Below, piece after piece: positions 23,843-36,136 of a DNA stretch of 64,000 bases (within the stretch, counting starts at the first letter, position 1; the number at the start of each line of letters is the position of its first letter). The position numbers were made by a program, and so were the translations under genes. Below the pieces are notes generated by a model that had not been told where the DNA came from, searched no databases, and saw nothing but the letters and a program-made list of their open reading frames with translations. Source of the DNA: Chloroflexota bacterium (GTDB lineage Bacteria; Chloroflexota; Dehalococcoidia; E44-bin15); the NCBI GenBank assembly GCA_030604825.1, contig JAUVVB010000001.1, positions 56,702 through 120,701 of the forward strand, written 5' to 3'.

Positions 23843-24783
23843 TGGCCCTGGAGAGGTACACCAGGGAGGCCTATGGGAATGCCCTTCTCCAGCTGGGCAG
23901 GGAGAACGAAGACATCGTGGTCCTCGATGCAGACCTCTCCCGCTCCACCATGACCCGCATTTTTGCCATGGAGTTTCCCCACCGCTTCTTCGATTGTGGC
24001 ATCGCCGAGCAGAACATGATGGGAATTGCCGCCGGCCTCGCCGCCTCGGGAAAGACCGTCTTTGCCAGCACCTTCGCCGTTTTTGCCTCCTCCCGCTGCT
24101 ATGACCAGGTTCGCATGTCCATCGCCCAGCCCCGTCAGAACGTTAAGATCGTGCCCAGCCATGGCGGAATCACCGTGGGGGAGGATGGCTTTTCCCACCA
24201 CTCCATCGAAGACCTGGCCCTGATGTGCTCCTTCCCCAACTTCACCGTTATCGTCCCCGCCGATGCCGTGGAGGCAGCCCAGGCAGTGAGAGCGGCAGCA
24301 AATACCTATGGCCCCTTCTATATCAGGCTCTGCCGCCCCAAAACGCCGCTGATCTTGGGGGAGGATTATCGCTTCATCATTGGCAAGGCAGCAACGCTGA
24401 GGGAGGGGAAGGATGTCACCATCATCGCCTGTGGCCTCATGGTGGCCAGGGCACTTCAGGCCGCCCACAACCTGATACGAGACGGAATCGATTGCCGGGT
24501 GGTTAACATGTCCACCCTCAAGCCCTTAGATGAGGATGTCATCGTCAAGGCAGCAAAGGAGACCGGCGCTATCTTGACCGCGGAGGAACACCTTCAGCAC
24601 GGCGGGCTGGGGAGCAGGGTCTCTCAAGTGGTGGCCAGGTACCATCCCGTCCCCATGTCCTTCCTCGCCATAAGGGATTTCTACTCCCCTTCAGGAAAGC
24701 CGGAGGAGCTTATGGAGCGGCACGGCCTCACCGTGGAGGGAATCGAGCAAGCGGTGCGCTCCCTCATCTCCAGGAAGCCTTAG
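23839..24783 (+). CDS. transketolase, C-terminal (pyrimidine-binding/transketolase_C) subunit
   Basis: 314 aa; REAYGNALLQLGRENEDIVVLDADLSRST...; ATGA overlap with the N-terminal subunit. Confidence 0.85.
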   Translation: MMALERYTREAYGNALLQLGRENEDIVVLDADLSRSTMTRIFAMEFPHRFFDCGIAEQNMMGIAAGLAASGKTVFASTFAVFASSRCYDQVRMSIAQPRQNVKIVPSHGGITVGEDGFSHHSIEDLALMCSFPNFTVIVPADAVEAAQAVRAAANTYGPFYIRLCRPKTPLILGEDYRFIIGKAATLREGKDVTIIACGLMVARALQAAHNLIRDGIDCRVVNMSTLKPLDEDVIVKAAKETGAILTAEEHLQHGGLGSRVSQVVARYHPVPMSFLAIRDFYSPSGKPEELMERHGLTVEGIEQAVRSLISRKP

Positions 24784-26051
24784 CCTCTGACCTGACCGCT
24801 GCCCATGATCACCCACTTATAGGTGGTGAGCTCCTTTAGCCCCATAGGGCCGCGGGCATGAAACTTCTGGGTGCTGATCCCCACCTCAGCCCCCAGCCCG
24901 AATTGACCGCCATCGGTGAAGCGGGTGCTGGCATTGACATAGACGCAGGCAGCATCCACCTCATCCAAGAAGCGCATCGCAGCGGAGTAGTCCTCGGTTA
25001 CGATGGCCTCGGAATGCCCCGAGCCGTAGCGCTGGATGTGCTCCAGCGCCTCATCCAGAGAATCAACAACCCTTATCGCCGCAACCAGTGCTAGAAATTC
25101 CTTCCCCCAATCGGAATCGGATGCTGGGGCGACCTTAAAGTTCGAAAAAGAGAGGGTCGCAAGCGCCCGCTCATCGCAGTGCATCTCCACCCCAGCCTGG
25201 GCCCACTCTCCGGCAATCATCGGCAGAAAGCGCTGGGCAACATCGCGATGAACCAGCAGGCAATCCAGGGCATTGCACACCGTGGGGCGCTGCACCTTGG
25301 CGTTGTAACAGATGGCAACCGCCTTATCCAGGTCGGCGGTGCTATCCACATAGGTGTGGCACACGCCAACCCCACTGGCAAGCACGGGCATGGTGGCATT
25401 CTCGGCGACCAGCGCCACCAGCGCCTCGCCACCACGGGGGATGATGAGGTCGATGGCGTCCTTCATCCTTAGCATCTGATTTACCAGCTCCCTAGCGGTG
25501 GACTCGATGAACTGCACCGCATCCGGGGGAACCCCCGCCTCCCCAACGGCGTCCTTTATCACCCTGACCAGGGCCCCGTTGGAGCGGAGCGCCTCCTTTC
25601 CCCCCCTGAGGATCACCGCATTCCCCGACTTGAGGCAAAGGGACGAGATGTCCACGGTGACATTGGGGCGGCTCTCATAGATGATTCCGATAACCCCCAG
25701 TGGCACCCTCCTCCGCTCAAGGTGCAGCCCATTGGGAAGCACCCTGACATCGAAGCTCTCCCCAACCGGGTCGGGGAGGGAGGCAACGGTGCCCACATCC
25801 TGAGCCATGGCCTGAAGCCCGGACGAGGTGAGGAGCAGCCTGTCGAGCATAGCATCGCCCATCCCGCTGGCCTTGGCCTCATCACAGTCGAGCTTGTTAG
25901 CTTCAAGGATCTCCCCCTCCCTGGAGACGAGGCTTTGAGCGATATTCATTAGCGCCCTGTTCTTCACCTCGGTGGGAAGGTGAGCCAGCGTTCTGGAGGC
26001 AGCCTTAGCAGCCTTTCCCTTCTTTTCGAGCTCCTCCATGGCAGATGACAT
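24780..26051 (-). CDS. proA: gamma-glutamyl phosphate reductase
   Basis: 423 aa aldehyde-dehydrogenase fold; typical ProA C-terminal region ...GLKELTTYKWVIMGSGQVR. Confidence 0.85.
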   Translation of the reverse strand: MSSAMEELEKKGKAAKAASRTLAHLPTEVKNRALMNIAQSLVSREGEILEANKLDCDEAKASGMGDAMLDRLLLTSSGLQAMAQDVGTVASLPDPVGESFDVRVLPNGLHLERRRVPLGVIGIIYESRPNVTVDISSLCLKSGNAVILRGGKEALRSNGALVRVIKDAVGEAGVPPDAVQFIESTARELVNQMLRMKDAIDLIIPRGGEALVALVAENATMPVLASGVGVCHTYVDSTADLDKAVAICYNAKVQRPTVCNALDCLLVHRDVAQRFLPMIAGEWAQAGVEMHCDERALATLSFSNFKVAPASDSDWGKEFLALVAAIRVVDSLDEALEHIQRYGSGHSEAIVTEDYSAAMRFLDEVDAACVYVNASTRFTDGGQFGLGAEVGISTQKFHARGPMGLKELTTYKWVIMGSGQVRG

Positions 26052-26055
26052 GGCA

Positions 26056-27525
26056 TTAACTCCCTTCTAACGGCAATTGCTCCTCTTTCTTAGAAACCTT
26101 GGGCGCTTTGGCATAGGGGGAGGTTGGCGACGGCATGTCAACAGCCTTACCCCGCAACAATTCCTCAATTGTCAGGATTTGAATCTTGGGATACTCTTTA
26201 TTCCAGAGCGGCGAATGATAGCTGCCAGCGCTCACCGCCTCTGTTCTCATCTCTCTGGTGGGAGGCTCCAAAGTTATGAAGACGCCCATGGCATGCCGGC
26301 TGGCGATGTCCTTTAATTCCCTGATGTCCTTCACATGAACATGGCCACTCTTTACAGAGACGACAGCCCGCTTCATACTCGGTTTGCCCGTAGCCTCGTC
26401 CCTATCTACAAAGTCAATGACGCCGTCAATCCCCTTGTCAGCACCCTTCCTGCGCTCCTCAGGGAAGGGCTTGGCCTTGATACGGCTCAGCGCCCACCAC
26501 TGGAACTGATAGCGGTCTTGCCTGGCTAAGGCTTTAGCTCCCGCTACATCCACCGGCTCACCAATAGCCTCAACCTGAATGCCACGGAAAGTGTCTTCCA
26601 GACGACTTCGCATAACGGCGATTGCCAGATGGGTGATGTCGATGCCAATCCAGCGCCTGTTTAAGCTATGCGCCGCCACAAGCGTGGTGCCACAGCCGCA
26701 AAAGGGATCAAGGACGACATCACCCTCATTGGAGCTTGCCTTGATGATACGCTCCAGTAGCGCTTCTGGCTTCTGAGTGGGATAGCCGAGGCGCTCCTTT
26801 GCGGAGGGAGGGACGAACGGGATGTGCCAAACATCATGTTCAGGGACTCCTTGTTCTCTGGTTGTCGTCACTAAATAGGGCTCTTCGCCTCGCTTAAACC
26901 TGTGTAAGATACCTTGCCGTTTTCTCTCAAGGGAACCAGCGGTGTAGGGTGTGAACTGCGTATTGAACTTATAGTTTCCAGTCTTTGTGTAGAAAAACAA
27001 AGTCTCATGTAATCTTTGAAATCTTTTGGCTTGAGCAGTCCAACGCCGATAATGCCACACAATCTCATTCTGAAAGTTCTTGACCCCAAACACCTGATCC
27101 AGCACGAGCTTAAGGTAGTGGCTGGCGGTGGGGTCGCAGTGGAGATAAAGGCAGCCTGTATCTTTCAAAACACGGTGAAGCTCCACCAGGCGGATGGTCA
27201 TCATCACGAGGTAGGCGGTAACATCGTTTCGCCCCAGGCCATCAACCATGGCATCTATTAGCTTCGCCACCTTCGGCGGCGCGGTATTAATGATCTCCTG
27301 AAAGGTGTCCTCCGCTGCCTGATCCCAGTGCCATGTATCGCTGAAAGCCTTTATCTGCGCCGCAGAAAGCTCGCCTGTCGCTTCCTTGAACAGAATGTTG
27401 TAGTGCCTCTTGCTGCTGAAAGGCGGGTCAAGATAAATCAGGTCAATGGAATTAGCCGGGATGTATTTGCGCAAAATTTCAAGATTGTCGCCATAATAGA
27501 GAACATTGATCTTTAACTCATCCAT
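26056..27525 (-). CDS. beta-class N6-adenine/N4-cytosine DNA methyltransferase fused to a C-terminal Mrr-like (PD-(D/E)xK, Mrr_cat-type) domain
   Basis: Motif IV DPPF (IDLIYLDPPFSS) precedes motif I (VVLDPFCGCGTTLVAAH), i.e. beta-class order; the C-terminal ~170 aa reads FQWWALSRI...GADKGIDGVIDF...AVVSVKSG...GVFITLEPPT...IQILTIEELLRG, co-linear with the Mrr catalytic-domain pattern (SVK in place of Q/ExK). Confidence 0.7.
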   Translation of the reverse strand: MDELKINVLYYGDNLEILRKYIPANSIDLIYLDPPFSSKRHYNILFKEATGELSAAQIKAFSDTWHWDQAAEDTFQEIINTAPPKVAKLIDAMVDGLGRNDVTAYLVMMTIRLVELHRVLKDTGCLYLHCDPTASHYLKLVLDQVFGVKNFQNEIVWHYRRWTAQAKRFQRLHETLFFYTKTGNYKFNTQFTPYTAGSLERKRQGILHRFKRGEEPYLVTTTREQGVPEHDVWHIPFVPPSAKERLGYPTQKPEALLERIIKASSNEGDVVLDPFCGCGTTLVAAHSLNRRWIGIDITHLAIAVMRSRLEDTFRGIQVEAIGEPVDVAGAKALARQDRYQFQWWALSRIKAKPFPEERRKGADKGIDGVIDFVDRDEATGKPSMKRAVVSVKSGHVHVKDIRELKDIASRHAMGVFITLEPPTREMRTEAVSAGSYHSPLWNKEYPKIQILTIEELLRGKAVDMPSPTSPYAKAPKVSKKEEQLPLEGS

Positions 27526-27536
27526 GCCGCCACCTC

Positions 27537-28685
27537 CTACAAAATGACCAAATTGTTCCGGTGCACCACCTCATCCCCGTATCCATAGCCGAGAAGGCTT
27601 TGTATCCTGTCAGAGCGAGCGCCCTTGATCACGGCGATCTCCCTTGAGCTATAGTTAGATATGCCGCAGGCAATCTGATTGCCCTCGGTGTCAACGACGT
27701 TCACCGCATCGCCGCGCTCAAAATTGCCCTCCACCTCCCTGATGCCTGCGGGAAGCAGGCTCCGGTTCTGCTCCCTCAACGCCACCACCGCCCCCTCGTC
27801 CACCACCAGCCTCCCCCTTGCCGCCAGCCCGCTGAGCATCCAGCGCTTCCTGCTCTCCATCTTGCTGGTCGCCGCCAGGAAGAGGGTGCCTATGGACTCT
27901 CCTGCCACCAGCCGAAGCAAGATGTCCCTCTCCCTGCCATCGGCGATGATCACCGAGGCTCCGGAGGCGGTGGCCAGCCTGGCCGCCTGAATCTTGGTGG
28001 CCATGCCACCGTGCCCCCGGCCCCTGGTGCCGCCAGCGAGGCGCTCAATGGCCTCATCGATCCTGTCCACCCGAGGGATGAGGGTTGCCCTTTTGACCTT
28101 GGCCGGGTCTGCGGTATAGAGCCCGGCAACATCGCCCAAAAGCACCAGCAGGTCGGCATCTACCAGATTGGTCACCATGGCGGAGAGGTTATCGTTATCG
28201 CCGAAGGTCGCCCCCTCAAGCTCGTCTACGGCCACCACATCGTTCTCATTGACGATGGGCACTACCCGGAACTCGAGGAGGGCAAGAAGGGTGTTTCTGG
28301 CGTTGAGATAGCCCAGGCGGTCGCAGAGGTCCGCCTTGGTAAGCAGGGTCTGGGCCACGGTGATGCCATGACAGCCGAAGAGCTGCTCATAGGAGTGCAT
28401 CAGGGCGTTCTGCCCCACCGCCGCCATCACCTGGCGGAAGGGGATGTCCCTGCGCTCCTTGGTGAGCCCCAGCTTTTGCCTGCCAGCGGCGATGGCCCCC
28501 GAGGAGACGATGATCACCTCACAGCCCTGCTGGTGAAGCCTCGCCAACTGACCCACCAATGTGGCCATCACCTCAAGGTCCAGGCGATCGCTGCCTGCGG
28601 TGAGCAGATTTGTGCCTAGCTTGACCACCAGCCGCCGATAAGGGGTCCCCAGCTCAGCCACCTTTACCCCCCTCCACTCCCCCAT
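27537..28685 (-). CDS. proB: glutamate 5-kinase (with C-terminal PUA domain)
   Basis: RRLVVKLGTNLLT..., amino-acid kinase fold; C-terminal PUA (DAVNVVDTEGNQIACGISNYSSREI). Confidence 0.85.
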   Translation of the reverse strand: MGEWRGVKVAELGTPYRRLVVKLGTNLLTAGSDRLDLEVMATLVGQLARLHQQGCEVIIVSSGAIAAGRQKLGLTKERRDIPFRQVMAAVGQNALMHSYEQLFGCHGITVAQTLLTKADLCDRLGYLNARNTLLALLEFRVVPIVNENDVVAVDELEGATFGDNDNLSAMVTNLVDADLLVLLGDVAGLYTADPAKVKRATLIPRVDRIDEAIERLAGGTRGRGHGGMATKIQAARLATASGASVIIADGRERDILLRLVAGESIGTLFLAATSKMESRKRWMLSGLAARGRLVVDEGAVVALREQNRSLLPAGIREVEGNFERGDAVNVVDTEGNQIACGISNYSSREIAVIKGARSDRIQSLLGYGYGDEVVHRNNLVIL

Positions 28686-29643
28686 GGGTCAAAACCGCCG
28701 TCATCCCCCGCTCTATCTTCTGCTTTGCCTCCTCCAGCAGGGCAACCCCGAAACTATACCTATCGCTCACCAGCTCCATATCCTCGCAGACCAGGGTATA
28801 GTCCAGGGTGCAAGGCTCCTCGTTGTCCTTTACCCTGAACCTGATGACGGCGATAAGGGTTCTCTGCCCCGTGGGATGCAACACCCGCTTACAATCCCAC
28901 TGGATGGAAGGCAAGCCTCCGTGAACATCATCGATCCTGAGCACGTTTCCCGGCTCCACGGTCTCGATCTCCGCATTTTCGAAGGAAGCGGAGAACTGGC
29001 TATACTTGGCAACCGCTCTCCCCTCATTGGCCACGAAAAGCCTCAGGCCAAAGCGATAGGTAGCATCCTCCACCCCTACCTCGGTGAACTCCGGGATCAG
29101 GGAGAGGGAGGGTTTTCCCTTCCGCCCAAAGAGGTCGGCAACTTCATAGTGATTCAAGGCATACTTGGTGAAGTTGACCCTGCGGTAATACTTGCCATCG
29201 CTCGCCTGGTAAGGGGGGTCAGCGCCGGGGGCAATCTCCACCAGATATACGGCCCTGGACCTGCTCACCCTCTTGGCGCCGTGAACCGGATATACCTTGA
29301 TAGTCGGCCGGGAAGAAGAGCCTATGTTGGAGAGGATTATATGCTCCACCCTTTCCGGGGTATACTTCTTGGAAACAGGGGCTATTCGCTTGGGATACAC
29401 TTTGCGATCCGGGGATTCCTTTTTTTTCGGGTTGTCCTCGACGAGCCCAATGATGATCAGCCCCCCCTCGGCATTGAGAAAGGCAGAAACCCACTGGGAT
29501 AGCTCTTCGGGCTTGTCCAAAATGTCAGCGCCCTTATACTCCAGAAAGCGGTCTTCCTCTTTTTTCATGGAGATGAGATTTCGCATATCCCTAGAGGTAA
29601 GCTCCTCCGCCTCTTTGCCAAATAACTCCTTTATGAAACCCAT
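28654..29643 (-). CDS. AlbA_2/Schlafen-like 'divergent AAA' putative DNA-binding domain protein
   Basis: N-terminus EDRFLEYKGADILDKPEELSQWVSAFLNAEGGLIIIGLVED matches the E..E.K....i.AfaN..GG.l.iGv.D signature; unknown C-terminal half; overlaps the proB start. Confidence 0.55.
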   Translation of the reverse strand: MGFIKELFGKEAEELTSRDMRNLISMKKEEDRFLEYKGADILDKPEELSQWVSAFLNAEGGLIIIGLVEDNPKKKESPDRKVYPKRIAPVSKKYTPERVEHIILSNIGSSSRPTIKVYPVHGAKRVSRSRAVYLVEIAPGADPPYQASDGKYYRRVNFTKYALNHYEVADLFGRKGKPSLSLIPEFTEVGVEDATYRFGLRLFVANEGRAVAKYSQFSASFENAEIETVEPGNVLRIDDVHGGLPSIQWDCKRVLHPTGQRTLIAVIRFRVKDNEEPCTLDYTLVCEDMELVSDRYSFGVALLEEAKQKIERGMTAVLTHGGVEGGKGG

Positions 29644-29778
29644 TACCAGCCCCCGAGATCGCTGCCATTATAGCAACAAATAGGGTGCGGGACAAGCAAG
29701 CCTCCTTGTCCCGGGAGGGGCGCTGTGCTAGAATCTTGACGGGGCTAGTCAGCAGCGGCTAGCCCTTTAGGTGTTGGG

Positions 29779-34223: not shown

Positions 34224-34985
34224 CTATCCACGAACCAAATCCAACATGCTCGGATGAACCTTTCTGTTGGAGAACAAAAGGTCGCTTGTTTCCAGTTTCC
34301 AGGGATTGCCGCCGAAATCGGTAACCTGCCCTCCTGCTTCTCGAATCAACAAAACCCCAGCAGCAACATCCCAGGGCTCGATCTTAGTGGTGAAGTAGGC
34401 TTCCCCCTTCCCCGCTGCCACCCAGGCTATTTCCAGGCCCGCCGAACCGAGTTTGCGTAGATCCATTACCCTTGGATAGACCTTGCTCAAGATGTTGCCG
34501 GTTCTGGATCGGTCCTTTTCACCACCCCCGCAATAAAGGACGTAGCTTTGGCCGAGATCAGAGACCTCCGAAACTTGAATTCTCCTTTGATTGAGATAGG
34601 CTCCTTTCCCCTTTTCCGCCAGATAGAATTCATCGATTGCCGGTGCATAGATTGCTCCTAGTAGCAGCTCGTTTCTGTGCATCAAAGCTATGCAAACCGA
34701 AAAGAAGGGATTTAAATTGGCAAAATTGCTAGTGCCATCAAGGGAGTCCACGATCCAAAGCCAATCGGCATCGCCTTTCAACAAGCCGCTCTCCTCGGTC
34801 AACAAGCTGTGGTCAGGATATTTCCCCCTGATTTCCTCAACGATCAGCTCATCAACCATTTTGTCGTACGTAGTTACCGCTTCTTTAACCGAAGTTCGAA
34901 GTTTGACCAATTCCCGGTCTTTCCCGAAATGGTCGACCAGGACATCACCCGCCTTTGTAGCCAAGTGCTGGATAAACTCCCTCAT
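34224..34985 (-). CDS. inositol monophosphatase family protein (SuhB/ImpA-like)
   Basis: WIVDSLDGTSNF and Mg-binding motifs of the IMPase fold. Confidence 0.8.
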   Translation of the reverse strand: MREFIQHLATKAGDVLVDHFGKDRELVKLRTSVKEAVTTYDKMVDELIVEEIRGKYPDHSLLTEESGLLKGDADWLWIVDSLDGTSNFANLNPFFSVCIALMHRNELLLGAIYAPAIDEFYLAEKGKGAYLNQRRIQVSEVSDLGQSYVLYCGGGEKDRSRTGNILSKVYPRVMDLRKLGSAGLEIAWVAAGKGEAYFTTKIEPWDVAAGVLLIREAGGQVTDFGGNPWKLETSDLLFSNRKVHPSMLDLVRG

Positions 34986-36136
34986 CCTTGAGACTTCCCC
35001 CTCGCATCCCCCAGCGCCTCATCAACCATGCTCGCCACGTATCTTCCTATGGCTGGAGCGCTGGTCAGGCCTGGCGATTCGATGCCGATCAAATTTACGA
35101 ACCCGGGCAGGCCTTTGTCGCTCTCGTCCCGGATCACGAAATCGGTTAAACCTGCCTCAGGCCCCTGCAATGTCGGCCTAATTCCCGCCATTTCGGGCTC
35201 AAGGTCGTCAAGTTGTATACAAGGCAAATACTTCACTACCGAGTCATAGAAGAGTTGTTTGTGCTGAGAGTCCACCGAGTAATCTATTTCATCCACATAT
35301 TGGCTGCTAGGCCCCAGTAGCATCTTCCCTTCAAGGTCCAGGGTGACATGAATGCCCAGACCTGCTCCTCTCGGCCGAGGCATGGGGTATATTAACCTTT
35401 TGACCAGCTTATTCTTGCTTCCCATGACACGGAAGTATTCCCCTTTGCAATAGTATAGCTTGTAGCCTGCCCTGACGATATCTATCCCAGCCAGCTCGGC
35501 CACCTGGTCGCAATTCAGACCAGCACAATTGACTATAACCCTGGTGGAAAAGGGGACATAGCCTGAGGCGTCTTCTACGGTGACTTGGTATTGGCTACCA
35601 AGCTTGTCGATTGCTACAACCTTAGACCTATAGCCTATCCTAGCTCCATTTTCTCTCGCCTTTGCCAGGAAGTATCCCATCAGGCCATAGACATCGATGA
35701 CACCAGCGGAGGGTACGAAAAGGGCAGCAACCGCCTTCACGTTGGGCTCCATCTCTTCGACCTCTTTTGGGGTGAGCAACCTCAAGCCCTCCACGTTGTT
35801 CTCCCTACCACTCTGTAAGAGGGTTTCCAGTTGCTCAGCCTCCGAGTTGTCTACAGCAACTACCAGCTTCCCCCTTCTTTGGCAGCCTATCCCATGCCTT
35901 TGGCACAGCGAGTAAAGGCTGGCATTTCCCTCTACGCAGGTTTTGGCCTTGAGCGACCCTTCAGGGTAAAAGACGCCGGAGTGGATAAGCTGGCTGTTTC
36001 TACTGCTCGTTTCCTGGCCGAAAGAGTCGTTCTTCTCCAGTATATAGACCTCTCTTCTGCCATCTGCAACTTGTGCAGCTACGGCCAGGCCCACAACGCC
36101 GGCACCGATTATGGTAATATCGACTGTGAGTGACAT
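34982..36136 (-). CDS. FAD-dependent oxidoreductase, L-2-hydroxyglutarate oxidase-like
   Basis: VDITIIGAGVVGLAVA Rossmann N-terminus; 384-aa DAO-family protein. Confidence 0.7.
   Translation of the reverse strand: MSLTVDITIIGAGVVGLAVAAQVADGRREVYILEKNDSFGQETSSRNSQLIHSGVFYPEGSLKAKTCVEGNASLYSLCQRHGIGCQRRGKLVVAVDNSEAEQLETLLQSGRENNVEGLRLLTPKEVEEMEPNVKAVAALFVPSAGVIDVYGLMGYFLAKARENGARIGYRSKVVAIDKLGSQYQVTVEDASGYVPFSTRVIVNCAGLNCDQVAELAGIDIVRAGYKLYYCKGEYFRVMGSKNKLVKRLIYPMPRPRGAGLGIHVTLDLEGKMLLGPSSQYVDEIDYSVDSQHKQLFYDSVVKYLPCIQLDDLEPEMAGIRPTLQGPEAGLTDFVIRDESDKGLPGFVNLIGIESPGLTSAPAIGRYVASMVDEALGDARGKSQG

What the first reader, a model, noticed from the sequence alone, without database searches (positions are those of the whole stretch)
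26056..29643. Methyltransferase-Mrr fusion inserted between proB and proA, with an AlbA_2/Schlafen-type gene overlapping the proB start
The universally adjacent proB-proA pair is interrupted by a 489-aa beta-class (DPPF before FCGCGTT) DNA methyltransferase. Its C-terminal 170 aa is co-linear with the Mrr restriction-endonuclease catalytic-domain pattern (FQWWALSRI / GADKGIDGVIDF / AVVSVKSG / GVFITLEP / IQILTIEELL), although the catalytic Q/E-x-K is S-V-K. No cognate restriction-endonuclease gene is adjacent. Immediately upstream, overlapping the proB start by about 32 bp, is a 329-aa protein whose N-terminus is an AlbA_2 ('divergent AAA', Schlafen-like) DNA-binding domain with an unknown C-terminal half. 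Both extra genes are on the proBA strand with negligible intergenic space (4-11 bp), so they would be co-transcribed with proline biosynthesis. This could be an orphan or epigenetic methyltransferase using a dead Mrr fold as a targeting module, or half of a split restriction/defence system.
Basis: partly seen in the sequence, partly recalled or inferred. Interest (0 to 1): 0.65.

Follow-up and report, generated by a model that had tools for sequence, protein, structure and literature searches.

The report
Mobile methyltransferase-nuclease gene in proBA hotspot
A one-gene DNA adenine methyltransferase cassette with a nuclease-like tail, from a very large mobile family, sits in the proline operon at a site where related bacteria carry many different defence genes, so the case is ordinary although the family itself is uncharacterised.

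Summary
On the minus strand the order is AlbA_2 (28654-29643), proB, a 489-aa methyltransferase (26056-27525), then proA, with 11-bp and 4-bp spacers.

The methyltransferase is a beta-class DPPF enzyme. Its C-terminal domain models confidently as an Mrr/FokI-like PD-(D/E)XK nuclease fold.

It is not unusual. At least 8000 close homologues share the architecture across many phyla, plasmids and phages, and no partner gene is conserved next to them.

The position is a recurrent hotspot. Of 59 related Dehalococcoidia proB-proA loci, 10 carry this methyltransferase, 2 carry remnants, 25 carry other cargo (ThaI and MvaI/BcnI restriction genes, AbiJ-like, DUF3800, others) and 21 are uninterrupted. 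All seven closest relatives lack it, and it is a sharp low-GC island here.

"Dead Mrr" is unproven. D363, D367 and K392 are invariant family-wide. The fourth position is Q in about 80% of members and S here, and S recurs sporadically.

The AlbA_2 gene is independent of the methyltransferase. It overlaps proB by 8 bp in relatives that lack the methyltransferase.

Most likely this is a mobile, self-contained restriction-modification-type cassette that now acts at least as an m6A methyltransferase. Interest is low to moderate.

The parts
26056..27525 (-). 489-aa methyltransferase-nuclease fusion gene: beta-class DNA methyltransferase plus a C-terminal Mrr/FokI-like domain
   Evidence: ORF. Pfam N6_N4_Mtase 3e-51, NA-iREase1 4e-9 and Mrr_cat 9e-5. 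At least 8000 homologues, and the best 120 all share the architecture. GC 0.519 against 0.61-0.63 in the flanks.
26629..27447 (-). Methyltransferase domain (residues 27-299). Motif IV DPPF is at 27418-27429 and motif I FCGCGTT is at 26683-26703. The target-recognition region lies between them (about residues 151-245).
   Evidence: DPPF is invariant in 95 of 96 family members. PDB sequence matches are to beta-class m6A/m4C methyltransferases. The target-recognition region shows only 36% mean identity, against 65-72% for the catalytic and SAM-binding parts.
26131..26574 (-). C-terminal PD-(D/E)XK (Mrr/FokI-like) domain, residues 318-465. Signature residues D363, D367, S390 and K392 lie within 26350-26439.
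27526..27539 (-). proB stop codon (TAG) and 11-bp spacer carrying the Shine-Dalgarno sequence (TAGGAGGTGGCGGC) used by the methyltransferase
   Evidence: It resembles the TAAGGAGGAAGT proB-proA spacer of relatives that lack the methyltransferase.
26052..26067 (-). End of the methyltransferase gene (GAAGGGAGTTAA) and 4-bp spacer, which supply the Shine-Dalgarno sequence for proA
   Evidence: The same arrangement is seen in L003.
27537..28661 (-). proB (glutamate 5-kinase). The probable start is GTG 28661; the longest ORF starts at 28685.
   Evidence: TIGR01027 3e-130. Start and overlap. Relatives have proteins of 374-375 aa with an 8-bp overlap.
24780..26051 (-). proA (glutamate-5-semialdehyde dehydrogenase)
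   Evidence: NF001221 6.5e-186.
28654..29643 (-). 329-aa AlbA_2/Schlafen-like protein. The AlbA_2 domain is at 29155-29556 and an Ig-like beta-sandwich is at 28750-29106. It is a lineage-specific first gene of the operon and is independent of the methyltransferase.
   Evidence: Pfam hit. Only 38 homologues found. Same position and 8-bp overlap with proB in L167, L171 and L087, which lack the methyltransferase. Model pLDDT 88; the N-terminal half matches DIP2311 and Schlafens, and the C-terminal half matches beta-sandwich domains.
29667..29695 (-). Promoter-like site (TTGTCC-17-TATAAT with TG) upstream of the AlbA_2 gene; candidate operon promoter
   Evidence: This is a consensus match only. 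No other minus-strand promoter-like site lies between here and proA.

Best explanation
The 489-aa gene is an intact copy of a very common, horizontally mobile one-gene cassette: a beta-class N6-adenine DNA methyltransferase fused to a C-terminal Mrr/FokI-like PD-(D/E)XK domain.

**Location and origin**
- It occupies the proB-proA spacer, which is 12-21 bp long in the uninterrupted closest relatives.
- In a clade of Dehalococcoidia this spacer is a recurrent hotspot for co-oriented cargo: restriction-modification systems, Abi-like genes, DUF3800, toxin-like genes, and even metabolic genes.
- In this lineage the gene was gained, or uniquely kept, after the split from the nearest relatives, which have AlbA_2-proB-proA with nothing in between.
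- It reuses the old Shine-Dalgarno spacer after proB, and its own 3' end supplies a new Shine-Dalgarno sequence for proA. It is therefore read through from the operon promoter without breaking proline biosynthesis.

**Shown**
- The architecture and the motifs.
- The nuclease fold of the C-terminal domain (a confident AlphaFold2 model matched to solved nuclease structures).
- The size and spread of the family.
- The hotspot, and absence from the closest relatives.
- The GC discontinuity.
- The independence of the AlbA_2 gene.

**Inferred**
- The enzyme makes m6A at a short specific motif.
- The family is a self-contained restriction-modification-type (defence or selfish) module. The methyltransferase body recognises the site, and the C-terminal domain is the cleavage module.
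- In this copy, and in about 20% of the family, the Q-to-S change at the QxK position weakens or removes cleavage. The gene then behaves mainly as a solitary methyltransferase.

The AlbA_2 protein is an unrelated, lineage-specific leader gene of the operon.
For: **Architecture and motifs:**

**Family size and uniform architecture:** (4155 clusters at 50% identity with E <= 1e-3; the domain is always C-terminal). Full-length copies occur on plasmids and in temperate phages.

**No conserved neighbour** in 74 loci from other phyla or other contexts. Tandem arrays of paralogues occur in L017 and L023.

**Nuclease fold:**

**Signature residues:** D363, D367 and K392 are invariant, Q390 is the majority state, and S-bearing members keep the other three. 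The motif fits the Mrr (D/E)...(D/E/Q)xK pattern (PMC2938202).

**Target-recognition region:** 36% mean identity against 65-72% for the catalytic parts, as expected for diversifying specificity.

**Hotspot:**
- 59 loci anchored on proA, so not selected for carrying the methyltransferase: 10 full copies, 2 remnants, 25 with other cargo, 21 empty.
- Cargo includes ThaI and MvaI/BcnI endonucleases, AbiJ_NTD4, DUF3800, NarE-like and GIY-YIG genes.
- About 90% of cargo ORFs are co-oriented with proBA.

**Turnover:**
- Methyltransferase identity tracks proA identity only weakly (Spearman rho 0.36, against 0.75 for proB versus proA).
- All seven relatives with proA identity of 78% or more lack it.
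- Methyltransferase GC is 0.52 and GC3 is 0.61, against 0.61-0.63 and 0.75-0.80 in the flanks, with sharp borders.

**Decay series:** L102 has lost exactly the C-terminal domain while keeping the methyltransferase part, and L135 keeps only a 137-aa stub.

**Junctions:**

**AlbA_2 independence:**
Against: - No member of the family could be tied to a demonstrated activity. Neither methylation nor cleavage is shown for any homologue found here.
- The best Pfam match of the tail is a family named as an inactive endonuclease (NA-iREase1).
- The helix position that often carries a catalytic glutamate is Q in most members.
- In MspJI the Q-to-A change at the position equivalent to S390 abolishes cleavage. 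This copy may therefore never cleave.
- Temperate phages carry solitary copies. That also fits a purely protective or epigenetic methyltransferase whose tail only binds DNA.
- Known single-chain restriction-modification enzymes have an N-terminal nuclease and a gamma-class methyltransferase (own knowledge). There is no precedent for this domain order.
- Gain in this lineage cannot be separated from loss in the sister lineages with the data at hand.
Confidence: 0.55

Rival explanations
1. Solitary (orphan or epigenetic) methyltransferase. The C-terminal nuclease-fold domain is non-catalytic across the whole family and serves as an extra DNA-binding or targeting module, much as the C-terminal domain of CcrM does. 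The gene only methylates.
For: - The strongest Pfam hit is to an endonuclease family described as inactive.
- Position 390 is S here, and Q-to-A at the equivalent MspJI residue abolishes cleavage.
- The N-terminal helix carries Q rather than E in 85/96 members.
- Solitary copies sit in the lysogeny regions of temperate phages.
- No restriction gene is adjacent.
Against: - Endonuclease-fold domains that have become binding modules normally lose their metal-binding residues. Here D363, D367 and K392 are invariant in more than 200 sequences, including every S-bearing member.
- The majority motif D-x22-QVK is the active Mrr/MspJI type.
- Patchy presence among close relatives, a strongly diverged target-recognition region, and residence in a hotspot full of restriction and abortive-infection genes all look like defence turnover, not a conserved regulator.
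- L102 dispenses with the domain yet keeps the methyltransferase part.
Confidence: 0.3
2. Half of a split restriction or defence system. Its partner would be the neighbouring AlbA_2/Schlafen-like protein or a gene elsewhere in the genome.
For: The AlbA_2 gene lies in the same putative transcription unit. Schlafen-type domains can be nucleases in eukaryotes (structures listed).
Against: - The AlbA_2 gene occupies the same position in L087, L167 and L171, which have no methyltransferase.
- Methyltransferase-bearing relatives (L001, L003, L008, L015 and others) have no AlbA_2 homologue nearby.
- A 52%-identical AlbA_2 homologue sits in an unrelated context.
- No recurring neighbour of the methyltransferase family was found in 74 loci.
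- PADLOC finds nothing for the AlbA_2 protein.
Confidence: 0.07
3. An ancestral, vertically inherited component of the proBA operon in this clade, with a physiological role tied to proline biosynthesis.
For: The same gene family sits between proB and proA in at least 17 contigs from several Dehalococcoidia species. It is tightly packed and co-oriented.
Against: - Present in only 10 of 59 proA-anchored loci, and absent from all seven closest relatives.
- Weak congruence with proA (rho 0.36).
- Foreign GC in this genome.
- The same gap holds unrelated cargo in other relatives.
- The family is spread over many phyla, phages and plasmids with no link to proBA.
Confidence: 0.03

Closest known systems
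Beta-class N6-adenine/N4-cytosine DNA methyltransferases (Pfam PF01555), such as M.MboIIA, M.RsrI, CcrM, E. coli YhdJ and Type III Mod subunits
   Same: Motif IV (DPPF) precedes motif I (FxGxG), with the target-recognition region between them. The Pfam match is full length. The best solved relatives are these enzymes, and PADLOC Type II and Type III methyltransferase models score strongly.
   Different: None of the solved beta-class methyltransferases that matched the query aligned beyond the methyltransferase domain, so none appears to carry a C-terminal PD-(D/E)XK domain. The protein scores far below the equivalog cut-offs for YhdJ-type and CcrM models, so it is not an orthologue of either.
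Mrr-type PD-(D/E)XK cleavage domains: Mrr_cat, the catalytic domains of MspJI and AspBHI, the nuclease of Type ISP LlaBIII, and the FokI and BspD6I cleavage modules
   Different: Here the domain is fused behind a methyltransferase rather than to an SRA-like reader, a helicase or a Type IIS recognition domain. This copy has S where MspJI needs Q. No cleavage has been shown.
Single-chain restriction-modification enzymes (Type IIG/IIC such as MmeI and BpuSI; Type ISP)
   Same: One polypeptide joins a PD-(D/E)XK domain to an adenine methyltransferase with its own target-recognition region. It moves as a single gene with no partner.
   Different: Characterised examples have the nuclease at the N-terminus and a gamma-class methyltransferase (own knowledge; BpuSI abstract). 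Here the order is reversed and the methyltransferase is beta-class. Activity is untested.
Variable defence or restriction-modification hotspots flanked by conserved core genes, including insertion of restriction-modification genes into operon-like clusters
   Same: A fixed chromosomal gap between two core genes holds different restriction-modification, Abi-like and toxin-like genes in different strains, with empty sites and decayed remnants. No integrase or tRNA gene is present.
   Different: The hotspot lies inside a two-gene biosynthetic operon, in a spacer of about 12 bp. Nearly all cargo is co-oriented, so proA stays expressed. This is a detail of placement, not a new principle.
Prokaryotic AlbA_2/Schlafen-like proteins (PF04326), such as DIP2311
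   Same: The N-terminal domain matches in sequence and in fold.
   Different: The usual C-terminal ATPase-like and winged-helix parts are missing. This protein has an Ig-like beta-sandwich instead and belongs to a small family of 38 sequences.

Membership tests
Beta-class amino DNA methyltransferase (PF01555 N6_N4_Mtase) | Pfam score above the gathering threshold over the full domain | tested here: met
   174.8 bits against a cut-off of 26.7; profile positions 1-213 of 221.
Beta-class amino DNA methyltransferase (PF01555 N6_N4_Mtase) | Permuted motif order: catalytic motif IV (D/S)PP(Y/F) lies N-terminal to the AdoMet-binding motif I FxGxG | tested here: met
   DPPF at residues 33-36 and FCGCGTT at 275-281. 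DPPF is present in 95/96 relatives. By established knowledge, D rather than S in motif IV points to N6-adenine.
Beta-class amino DNA methyltransferase (PF01555 N6_N4_Mtase) | Transfers methyl groups to DNA at a defined motif | not testable with these tools
   Needs a methylome or an expression assay.
Mrr-type PD-(D/E)XK endonuclease domain (PF04471 Mrr_cat) | Restriction-endonuclease-like alpha/beta fold | tested here: met
Mrr-type PD-(D/E)XK endonuclease domain (PF04471 Mrr_cat) | Catalytic signature (D/E)...(D/E/Q)xK | tested here: not met
   D363, D367 and K392 are present, but the middle position is S390, not D, E or Q. The family majority (Q in 79/96 and 95/120) does meet the signature. 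Motif definition and the lethal MspJI Q355A mutation come from PMC2938202.
Mrr-type PD-(D/E)XK endonuclease domain (PF04471 Mrr_cat) | Cleaves DNA | not testable with these tools
   No biochemical data were found for any family member (literature searches).
NA-iREase1 (PF22722, NACHT-associated inactive restriction endonuclease) | Pfam score above the gathering threshold | tested here: met
   36.8 bits against a cut-off of 27; residues 354-457.
NA-iREase1 (PF22722, NACHT-associated inactive restriction endonuclease) | Association with NACHT NTPases and loss of catalytic residues | tested here: not met
   The domain is fused to a methyltransferase in all the top hits. D363, D367 and K392 are invariant.
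Single-chain restriction-modification enzyme (Type IIG/IIC) | Nuclease and methyltransferase domains in one polypeptide, with no separate partner genes | tested here: met
   Architecture. No conserved neighbour in 74 loci.
Single-chain restriction-modification enzyme (Type IIG/IIC) | N-terminal PD-ExK nuclease followed by a gamma-class methyltransferase and a target-recognition domain, as in the characterised members | tested here: not met
   The nuclease-like domain is C-terminal and the methyltransferase is beta-class.
Single-chain restriction-modification enzyme (Type IIG/IIC) | Cuts unmodified DNA near its recognition site | not testable with these tools
   Needs enzyme assays.
Classical Type II restriction-modification pair | Cognate endonuclease gene adjacent to the methyltransferase | tested here: not met
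   The only neighbours are proB and proA, and the flanks match those of relatives without the methyltransferase.
Conserved housekeeping orphan methyltransferase (Dam/CcrM type) | Present throughout a clade, vertically inherited, with conserved specificity region | tested here: not met
   Present in 10 of 59 related loci and in none of the 7 closest. Spearman rho 0.36 with proA. Target-recognition region 36% identical. Below the CcrM and YhdJ equivalog cut-offs.
AlbA_2/Schlafen-like domain (PF04326) | Pfam score above the threshold, and a matching fold | tested here: met
   45 bits against a cut-off of 25.3. Foldseek hits DIP2311, SLFN12, SLFN13 and SLFN11 at E 3e-5 to 3e-4.

The most novel reading that the evidence does not exclude
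The family this gene belongs to has thousands of 50%-identity clusters across bacteria, archaea, plasmids and phages. It could be an unrecognised class of single-polypeptide restriction-modification enzyme: a beta-class adenine methyltransferase that carries its own Mrr/FokI-like cleavage module at the C-terminus. This is the reverse domain order, and a different methyltransferase class, from known Type IIG enzymes. Being a single gene would explain three observations:
- it never has a conserved partner;
- it can slip into a 12-bp operon spacer;
- decayed copies lose the tail first (as in L102).

The recurrent Q-to-S variants, including this one, would then be attenuated or methylation-only derivatives.
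Probability: 0.3. Interest if true: 0.6.

Novelty: new member of a known kind. Interest (0 to 1): 0.3.

Why it matters
For this locus alone, little is at stake. It is one more copy of an abundant, automatically annotated "site-specific DNA-methyltransferase", sitting where mobile restriction-type genes commonly land.

Two wider points are worth recording:
- **An operon-internal hotspot.** A biosynthetic operon (proBA) in a Dehalococcoidia clade tolerates an internal, co-oriented cargo hotspot with restriction, abortive-infection and toxin-like genes. This is a neat example of how defence genes borrow the transcription of housekeeping genes.
- **An uncharacterised family.** I found no experimental characterisation of this methyltransferase-plus-nuclease-fold family, although it has thousands of members and an almost fully conserved nuclease signature. 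If it cleaves DNA it would be a new architecture of one-chain restriction enzyme, with possible use as a tool. If not, it is a clear case of a nuclease fold reused as a DNA-binding module.

Tried and rejected
- **Exact look-up of the methyltransferase on public contigs.** The organism is inferred to be a Dehalococcoidia MAG from the best hits.
- **Sequence or profile search of the C-terminal domain against PDB sequences.** Nothing significant. Only structure comparison worked.
- **Search for a conserved partner gene next to family members in other phyla.** None found. The largest cluster was paralogous methyltransferases.
- **Test for homology among the extra genes beside the methyltransferase in syntenic loci.** They are unrelated to one another, so there is no hidden cognate endonuclease family.
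- **Test for a recombination footprint.** I asked whether the flanks next to the methyltransferase resemble methyltransferase-bearing relatives more than empty-site relatives. They do not. Identity is flat at about 85% to the empty-site relatives, and the GC drop is confined to the gene. The route of entry stays unknown.
- **tRNA scan.** No tRNA gene in the window.
- **Terminator scan.** At chance level, so it gives no evidence for or against read-through.
- **Literature searches.** Searches for the domain pair, for NA-iREase1 and for Dehalococcoidia methylomes found no characterised member.
- **Attempt to document the Cfr10I-type S-x-K active-site precedent.** Nothing found in the library. 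It remains my own recollection only and is not used as evidence.
- **Rejected ideas.** AlbA_2 as a partner of the methyltransferase, an ancestral operon component, and a CcrM/Dam-like regulator. Reasons are given under the rival explanations.

Full report
**1. What is there**

- proA, 24780-26051
- a 489-aa ORF, 26056-27525
- proB, 27537-28685
- a 329-aa ORF, 28654-29643

mfd runs divergently from 29779. proB and proA match their equivalog models (TIGR01027 3e-130; NF001221 6.5e-186).

The 489-aa protein has these Pfam matches:
- N6_N4_Mtase: 3e-51, residues 27-299.
- NA-iREase1: 4e-9, 36.8 bits against a cut-off of 27, residues 354-457.
- Mrr_cat: 9e-5, 23 bits against a cut-off of 21.

DPPF (residues 33-36) precedes FCGCGTT (275-281), which is the beta-class order. 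The solved relatives are beta-class m6A/m4C enzymes. The 329-aa protein has SLFN_AlbA_2 at residues 30-163.

The spacers are 11 bp and 4 bp. The quoted 32-bp overlap with proB is probably 8 bp. A GTG at 28661 follows GGAGTGGAGG and gives a 374-aa proB. This matches the relatives' gene calls on record, which also overlap by 8 bp.

The methyltransferase gene is a sharp low-GC island: GC 0.52 and GC3 0.61, against 0.61-0.63 and 0.75-0.80 in proB and proA. One promoter-like site lies upstream of the AlbA_2 gene, and none lies inside the four-gene block on that strand. That fits co-transcription but does not prove it.

**2. The fusion is the normal form of a very large family**

A search of 5.8 billion proteins hit the ceiling of 8000 candidates, all with E <= 1e-5. 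The best 120 (58-78% identity, full length) all carry the methyltransferase plus the NA-iREase1/Mrr_cat tail.

A profile of the tail alone finds 4155 clusters (50% identity) at E <= 1e-3 and 383 at E <= 1e-30. The domain is always at the C-terminal end. The short hits are fragments that begin inside the last methyltransferase helix.

Species-level genomes with full-length relatives span these groups:
- Chloroflexota
- ANME-1 and other archaea
- Poribacteria
- Desulfobacterota
- Ignavibacteria
- Acidobacteria
- other phyla

Full-length copies also occur on plasmids and in temperate phages. Marinitoga phage MPV1 carries one beside its CI-like repressor, and Streptomyces phages carry one beside the integrase.

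No neighbouring gene family recurs beside the methyltransferase in 74 loci outside the proBA context. The only repeated neighbour is a paralogous copy, with three in tandem in L017 and L023.

**3. The site is a hotspot**

Two close homologues (74-75% identity) were first seen between proB and proA, next to mfd, in other Dehalococcoidia MAGs, each with different extra genes. Among species genomes the arrangement recurs in L007, L008, L012, L013 and L015, but in no other phylum.

For a sample not selected for carrying the methyltransferase, I fetched 80 metagenome loci through proA alone. Of these, 59 contain both the end of proB and the start of proA:

| Content of the proB-proA gap | Loci |
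|---|---|
| Full-length methyltransferase of this family | 10 |
| Remnant of this family | 2 |
| A different methyltransferase with an MvaI/BcnI endonuclease | 1 |
| Uninterrupted (gap under 150 bp, typically 12-20 bp with a Shine-Dalgarno sequence) | 21 |
| Other content, 0.25-2.7 kb | 25 |

The other cargo includes:
- a ThaI endonuclease
- an AbiJ N-terminal domain protein
- DUF3800 proteins
- a DUF6978 plus DUF1828 pair
- a NarE-like ADP-ribosyltransferase
- a GIY-YIG protein
- a 222-aa protein with a PD...EVK motif
- a conserved ORF of about 90 aa (22 loci)
- metabolic genes (glutamate dehydrogenase, DUF169)

About 90% of these ORFs point the same way as proBA.

All seven relatives with proA identity of 78% or more lack the methyltransferase. 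The closest ones (L087/L167 and L171; proA 88-89%) read mfd | AlbA_2-proB-proA | transketolase, exactly as the window does minus the methyltransferase.

Methyltransferase identity tracks proA identity only weakly (Spearman 0.36, against 0.75 for proB versus proA). Some pairs have proA 86-87% identical but methyltransferases only 59-60% identical. Alleles are therefore exchanged or replaced at this site.

I found no recombination footprint in the flanks and no tRNA gene in the window. How the gene entered is open.

The junctions show how the operon survives. The methyltransferase uses a spacer like the original one (TAGGAGGTGGCGGC-ATG, compared with TAAGGAGGAAGT-ATG in empty sites). Its last codons (GAAGGGAGTTAA) supply a new Shine-Dalgarno sequence for proA. 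L003 has the same arrangement.

**4. The C-terminal domain**

An AlphaFold2 model of residues 318-480 (15-sequence alignment) has a mean pLDDT of 83.5.
- Foldseek places it with the catalytic domains of AspBHI and MspJI (E 1.6e-4 and 4e-4).

It is therefore a genuine Mrr/FokI-like PD-(D/E)XK fold.

Across 96 relatives from loci and 120 from the protein search:
- D363, D367 and K392 are invariant.
- Position 390 is Q in 79/96 and 95/120 sequences, and S in the rest, including the window copy.
- The S state is scattered over the family (archaea, Nitrospirae, Acidobacteria, a Streptomyces phage).
- S-bearing members still keep D363, D367 and K392 without exception, and their tails are as conserved as those of Q-bearing members (55% against 59% mean identity).

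The majority motif, D-x22-QVK, is the Mrr-type signature (D/E)...(D/E/Q)xK. In MspJI both D334A and Q355A abolish cleavage (PMC2938202).

Two conclusions follow. The family tail looks like a working active site rather than a degenerate one. The window copy departs from it at a position known to matter in one relative. Whether S390 disables the domain cannot be decided here.

One relative (L102) has lost exactly this domain while keeping a full methyltransferase part. Another (L135) is reduced to a 137-aa stub.

**5. What it most likely does**

The methyltransferase part is intact, and DPPF points to N6-adenine by established knowledge of motif IV.

Four features are the marks of restriction-modification-type turnover, not of a conserved regulator such as Dam or CcrM:
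- the target-recognition region is far more diverged (36% mean identity) than the catalytic (65%) and AdoMet-binding (72%) parts;
- the gene comes and goes among close relatives;
- it lives on phages and plasmids;
- it shares its chromosomal slot with bona fide restriction systems.

The protein also scores far below the CcrM and YhdJ equivalog cut-offs.

No partner gene is ever conserved beside it, and the tail keeps a nuclease signature. The most economical reading is a self-contained, one-gene restriction-modification-type module. In this copy the cleavage half may be weakened, which would leave at least a solitary m6A methyltransferase transcribed with proBA. I put 0.55 on this overall picture. 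The mobile-cassette-in-a-hotspot part is well supported. The cleavage part is inference.

**6. The AlbA_2 gene**

This gene belongs to a small family of 38 sequences, conserved over the full length.
- In the three closest relatives it sits in the same place, overlapping proB by 8 bp, with no methyltransferase present.
- A 52%-identical homologue lies in an unrelated context.
- Methyltransferase-bearing relatives lack it.
- It diverges faster than its neighbours: 61-67% identity, against 84-89% for proB and proA.
- The model (pLDDT 88) shows an AlbA_2/Schlafen-like N-terminal half (matches to DIP2311 and to SLFN12, SLFN13 and SLFN11). Residues 180-298 form an Ig-like beta-sandwich.
- PADLOC and NCBIfam give nothing for it.

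It is a separate, lineage-specific leader gene of the operon. It is not part of a system with the methyltransferase, and its function remains unknown.

**7. Verdict**

It overstates the rarity of the fusion and the deadness of the tail, and it wrongly links the AlbA_2 gene to the methyltransferase.

The gene is a new member of a known, abundant kind. The points worth keeping are the operon-internal cargo hotspot and the fact that this large methyltransferase-nuclease-fold family appears to be uncharacterised.

Noticed in passing
L106 4379-6022; L120 5371-6872; L122 551-1399; L007 1752-2210; L140 3824-4267 (all in the proB-proA gaps of relatives): The same gap holds a ThaI endonuclease with a 306-aa neighbour, an MvaI/BcnI endonuclease with a methyltransferase fragment, an AbiJ_NTD4 protein, a NarE-like ADP-ribosyltransferase, and a GIY-YIG protein just upstream of the methyltransferase. 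Together they form a small defence and toxin islet inside a biosynthetic operon.
   Followed up: partly
L001 6789-7061, L102 3666-3932, and 20 further loci (cluster 0): A conserved ORF of about 90 aa (MK/SxGKLY...), with no Pfam match, follows proB directly in 22 related loci, with or without the methyltransferase. The window lacks it.
   Followed up: no
L102 4014-5021; L135 3910-4323: Decay states of the hotspot methyltransferase. In L102 the protein stops exactly where the nuclease-fold domain would begin (...EVIGE*), leaving a methyltransferase-only gene. In L135 only a 137-aa N-terminal stub remains.
   Followed up: partly
L017 8059-13497; L023 2-6347: Three paralogous methyltransferase-nuclease-fold genes (40-52% identity to the query) lie in tandem in a Desulfococcaceae MAG and in an unclassified MAG.
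   Followed up: no
L172 2716-4272 (Marinitoga phage MPV1); L173 2974-4617 (Streptomyces phage Hippo): Full-length family members occur in temperate phages, beside the CI-like repressor or the serine integrase. MPV1 has QVK at the signature position, and Hippo has SVK like the window copy.
   Followed up: partly
mfd-proB intergenic region in relatives (for example L114, L137, L158, L015); window 28654-29778: The gap between mfd and proB also varies, from about 0.1 to 2.9 kb among relatives. In the window lineage it holds the AlbA_2 gene. In L167 a reverse-transcriptase (RVT_1) gene lies beside mfd. This may be a second variable spot.
   Followed up: no
window 27525-26056, residues about 195-240: The target-recognition region of the window methyltransferase is the short form. 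Homologues fall into two length classes, about 480-500 and 535-550 aa, and the alignment has a variable insertion block of up to 66 columns after residue 201.
   Followed up: no
window 34250-36000: A second stretch of lower GC (0.49-0.53, against about 0.61 in the surroundings) covers two minus-strand ORFs (34224-34985 and 34982-36136). It was not examined.
   Followed up: no
window 29667-29734: A back-to-back pair of promoter-like sites, both TTGTCC-17-TA(T/G)AAT with a TG extension, lies in the 135-bp gap between the AlbA_2 gene and the divergently transcribed mfd.
   Followed up: no
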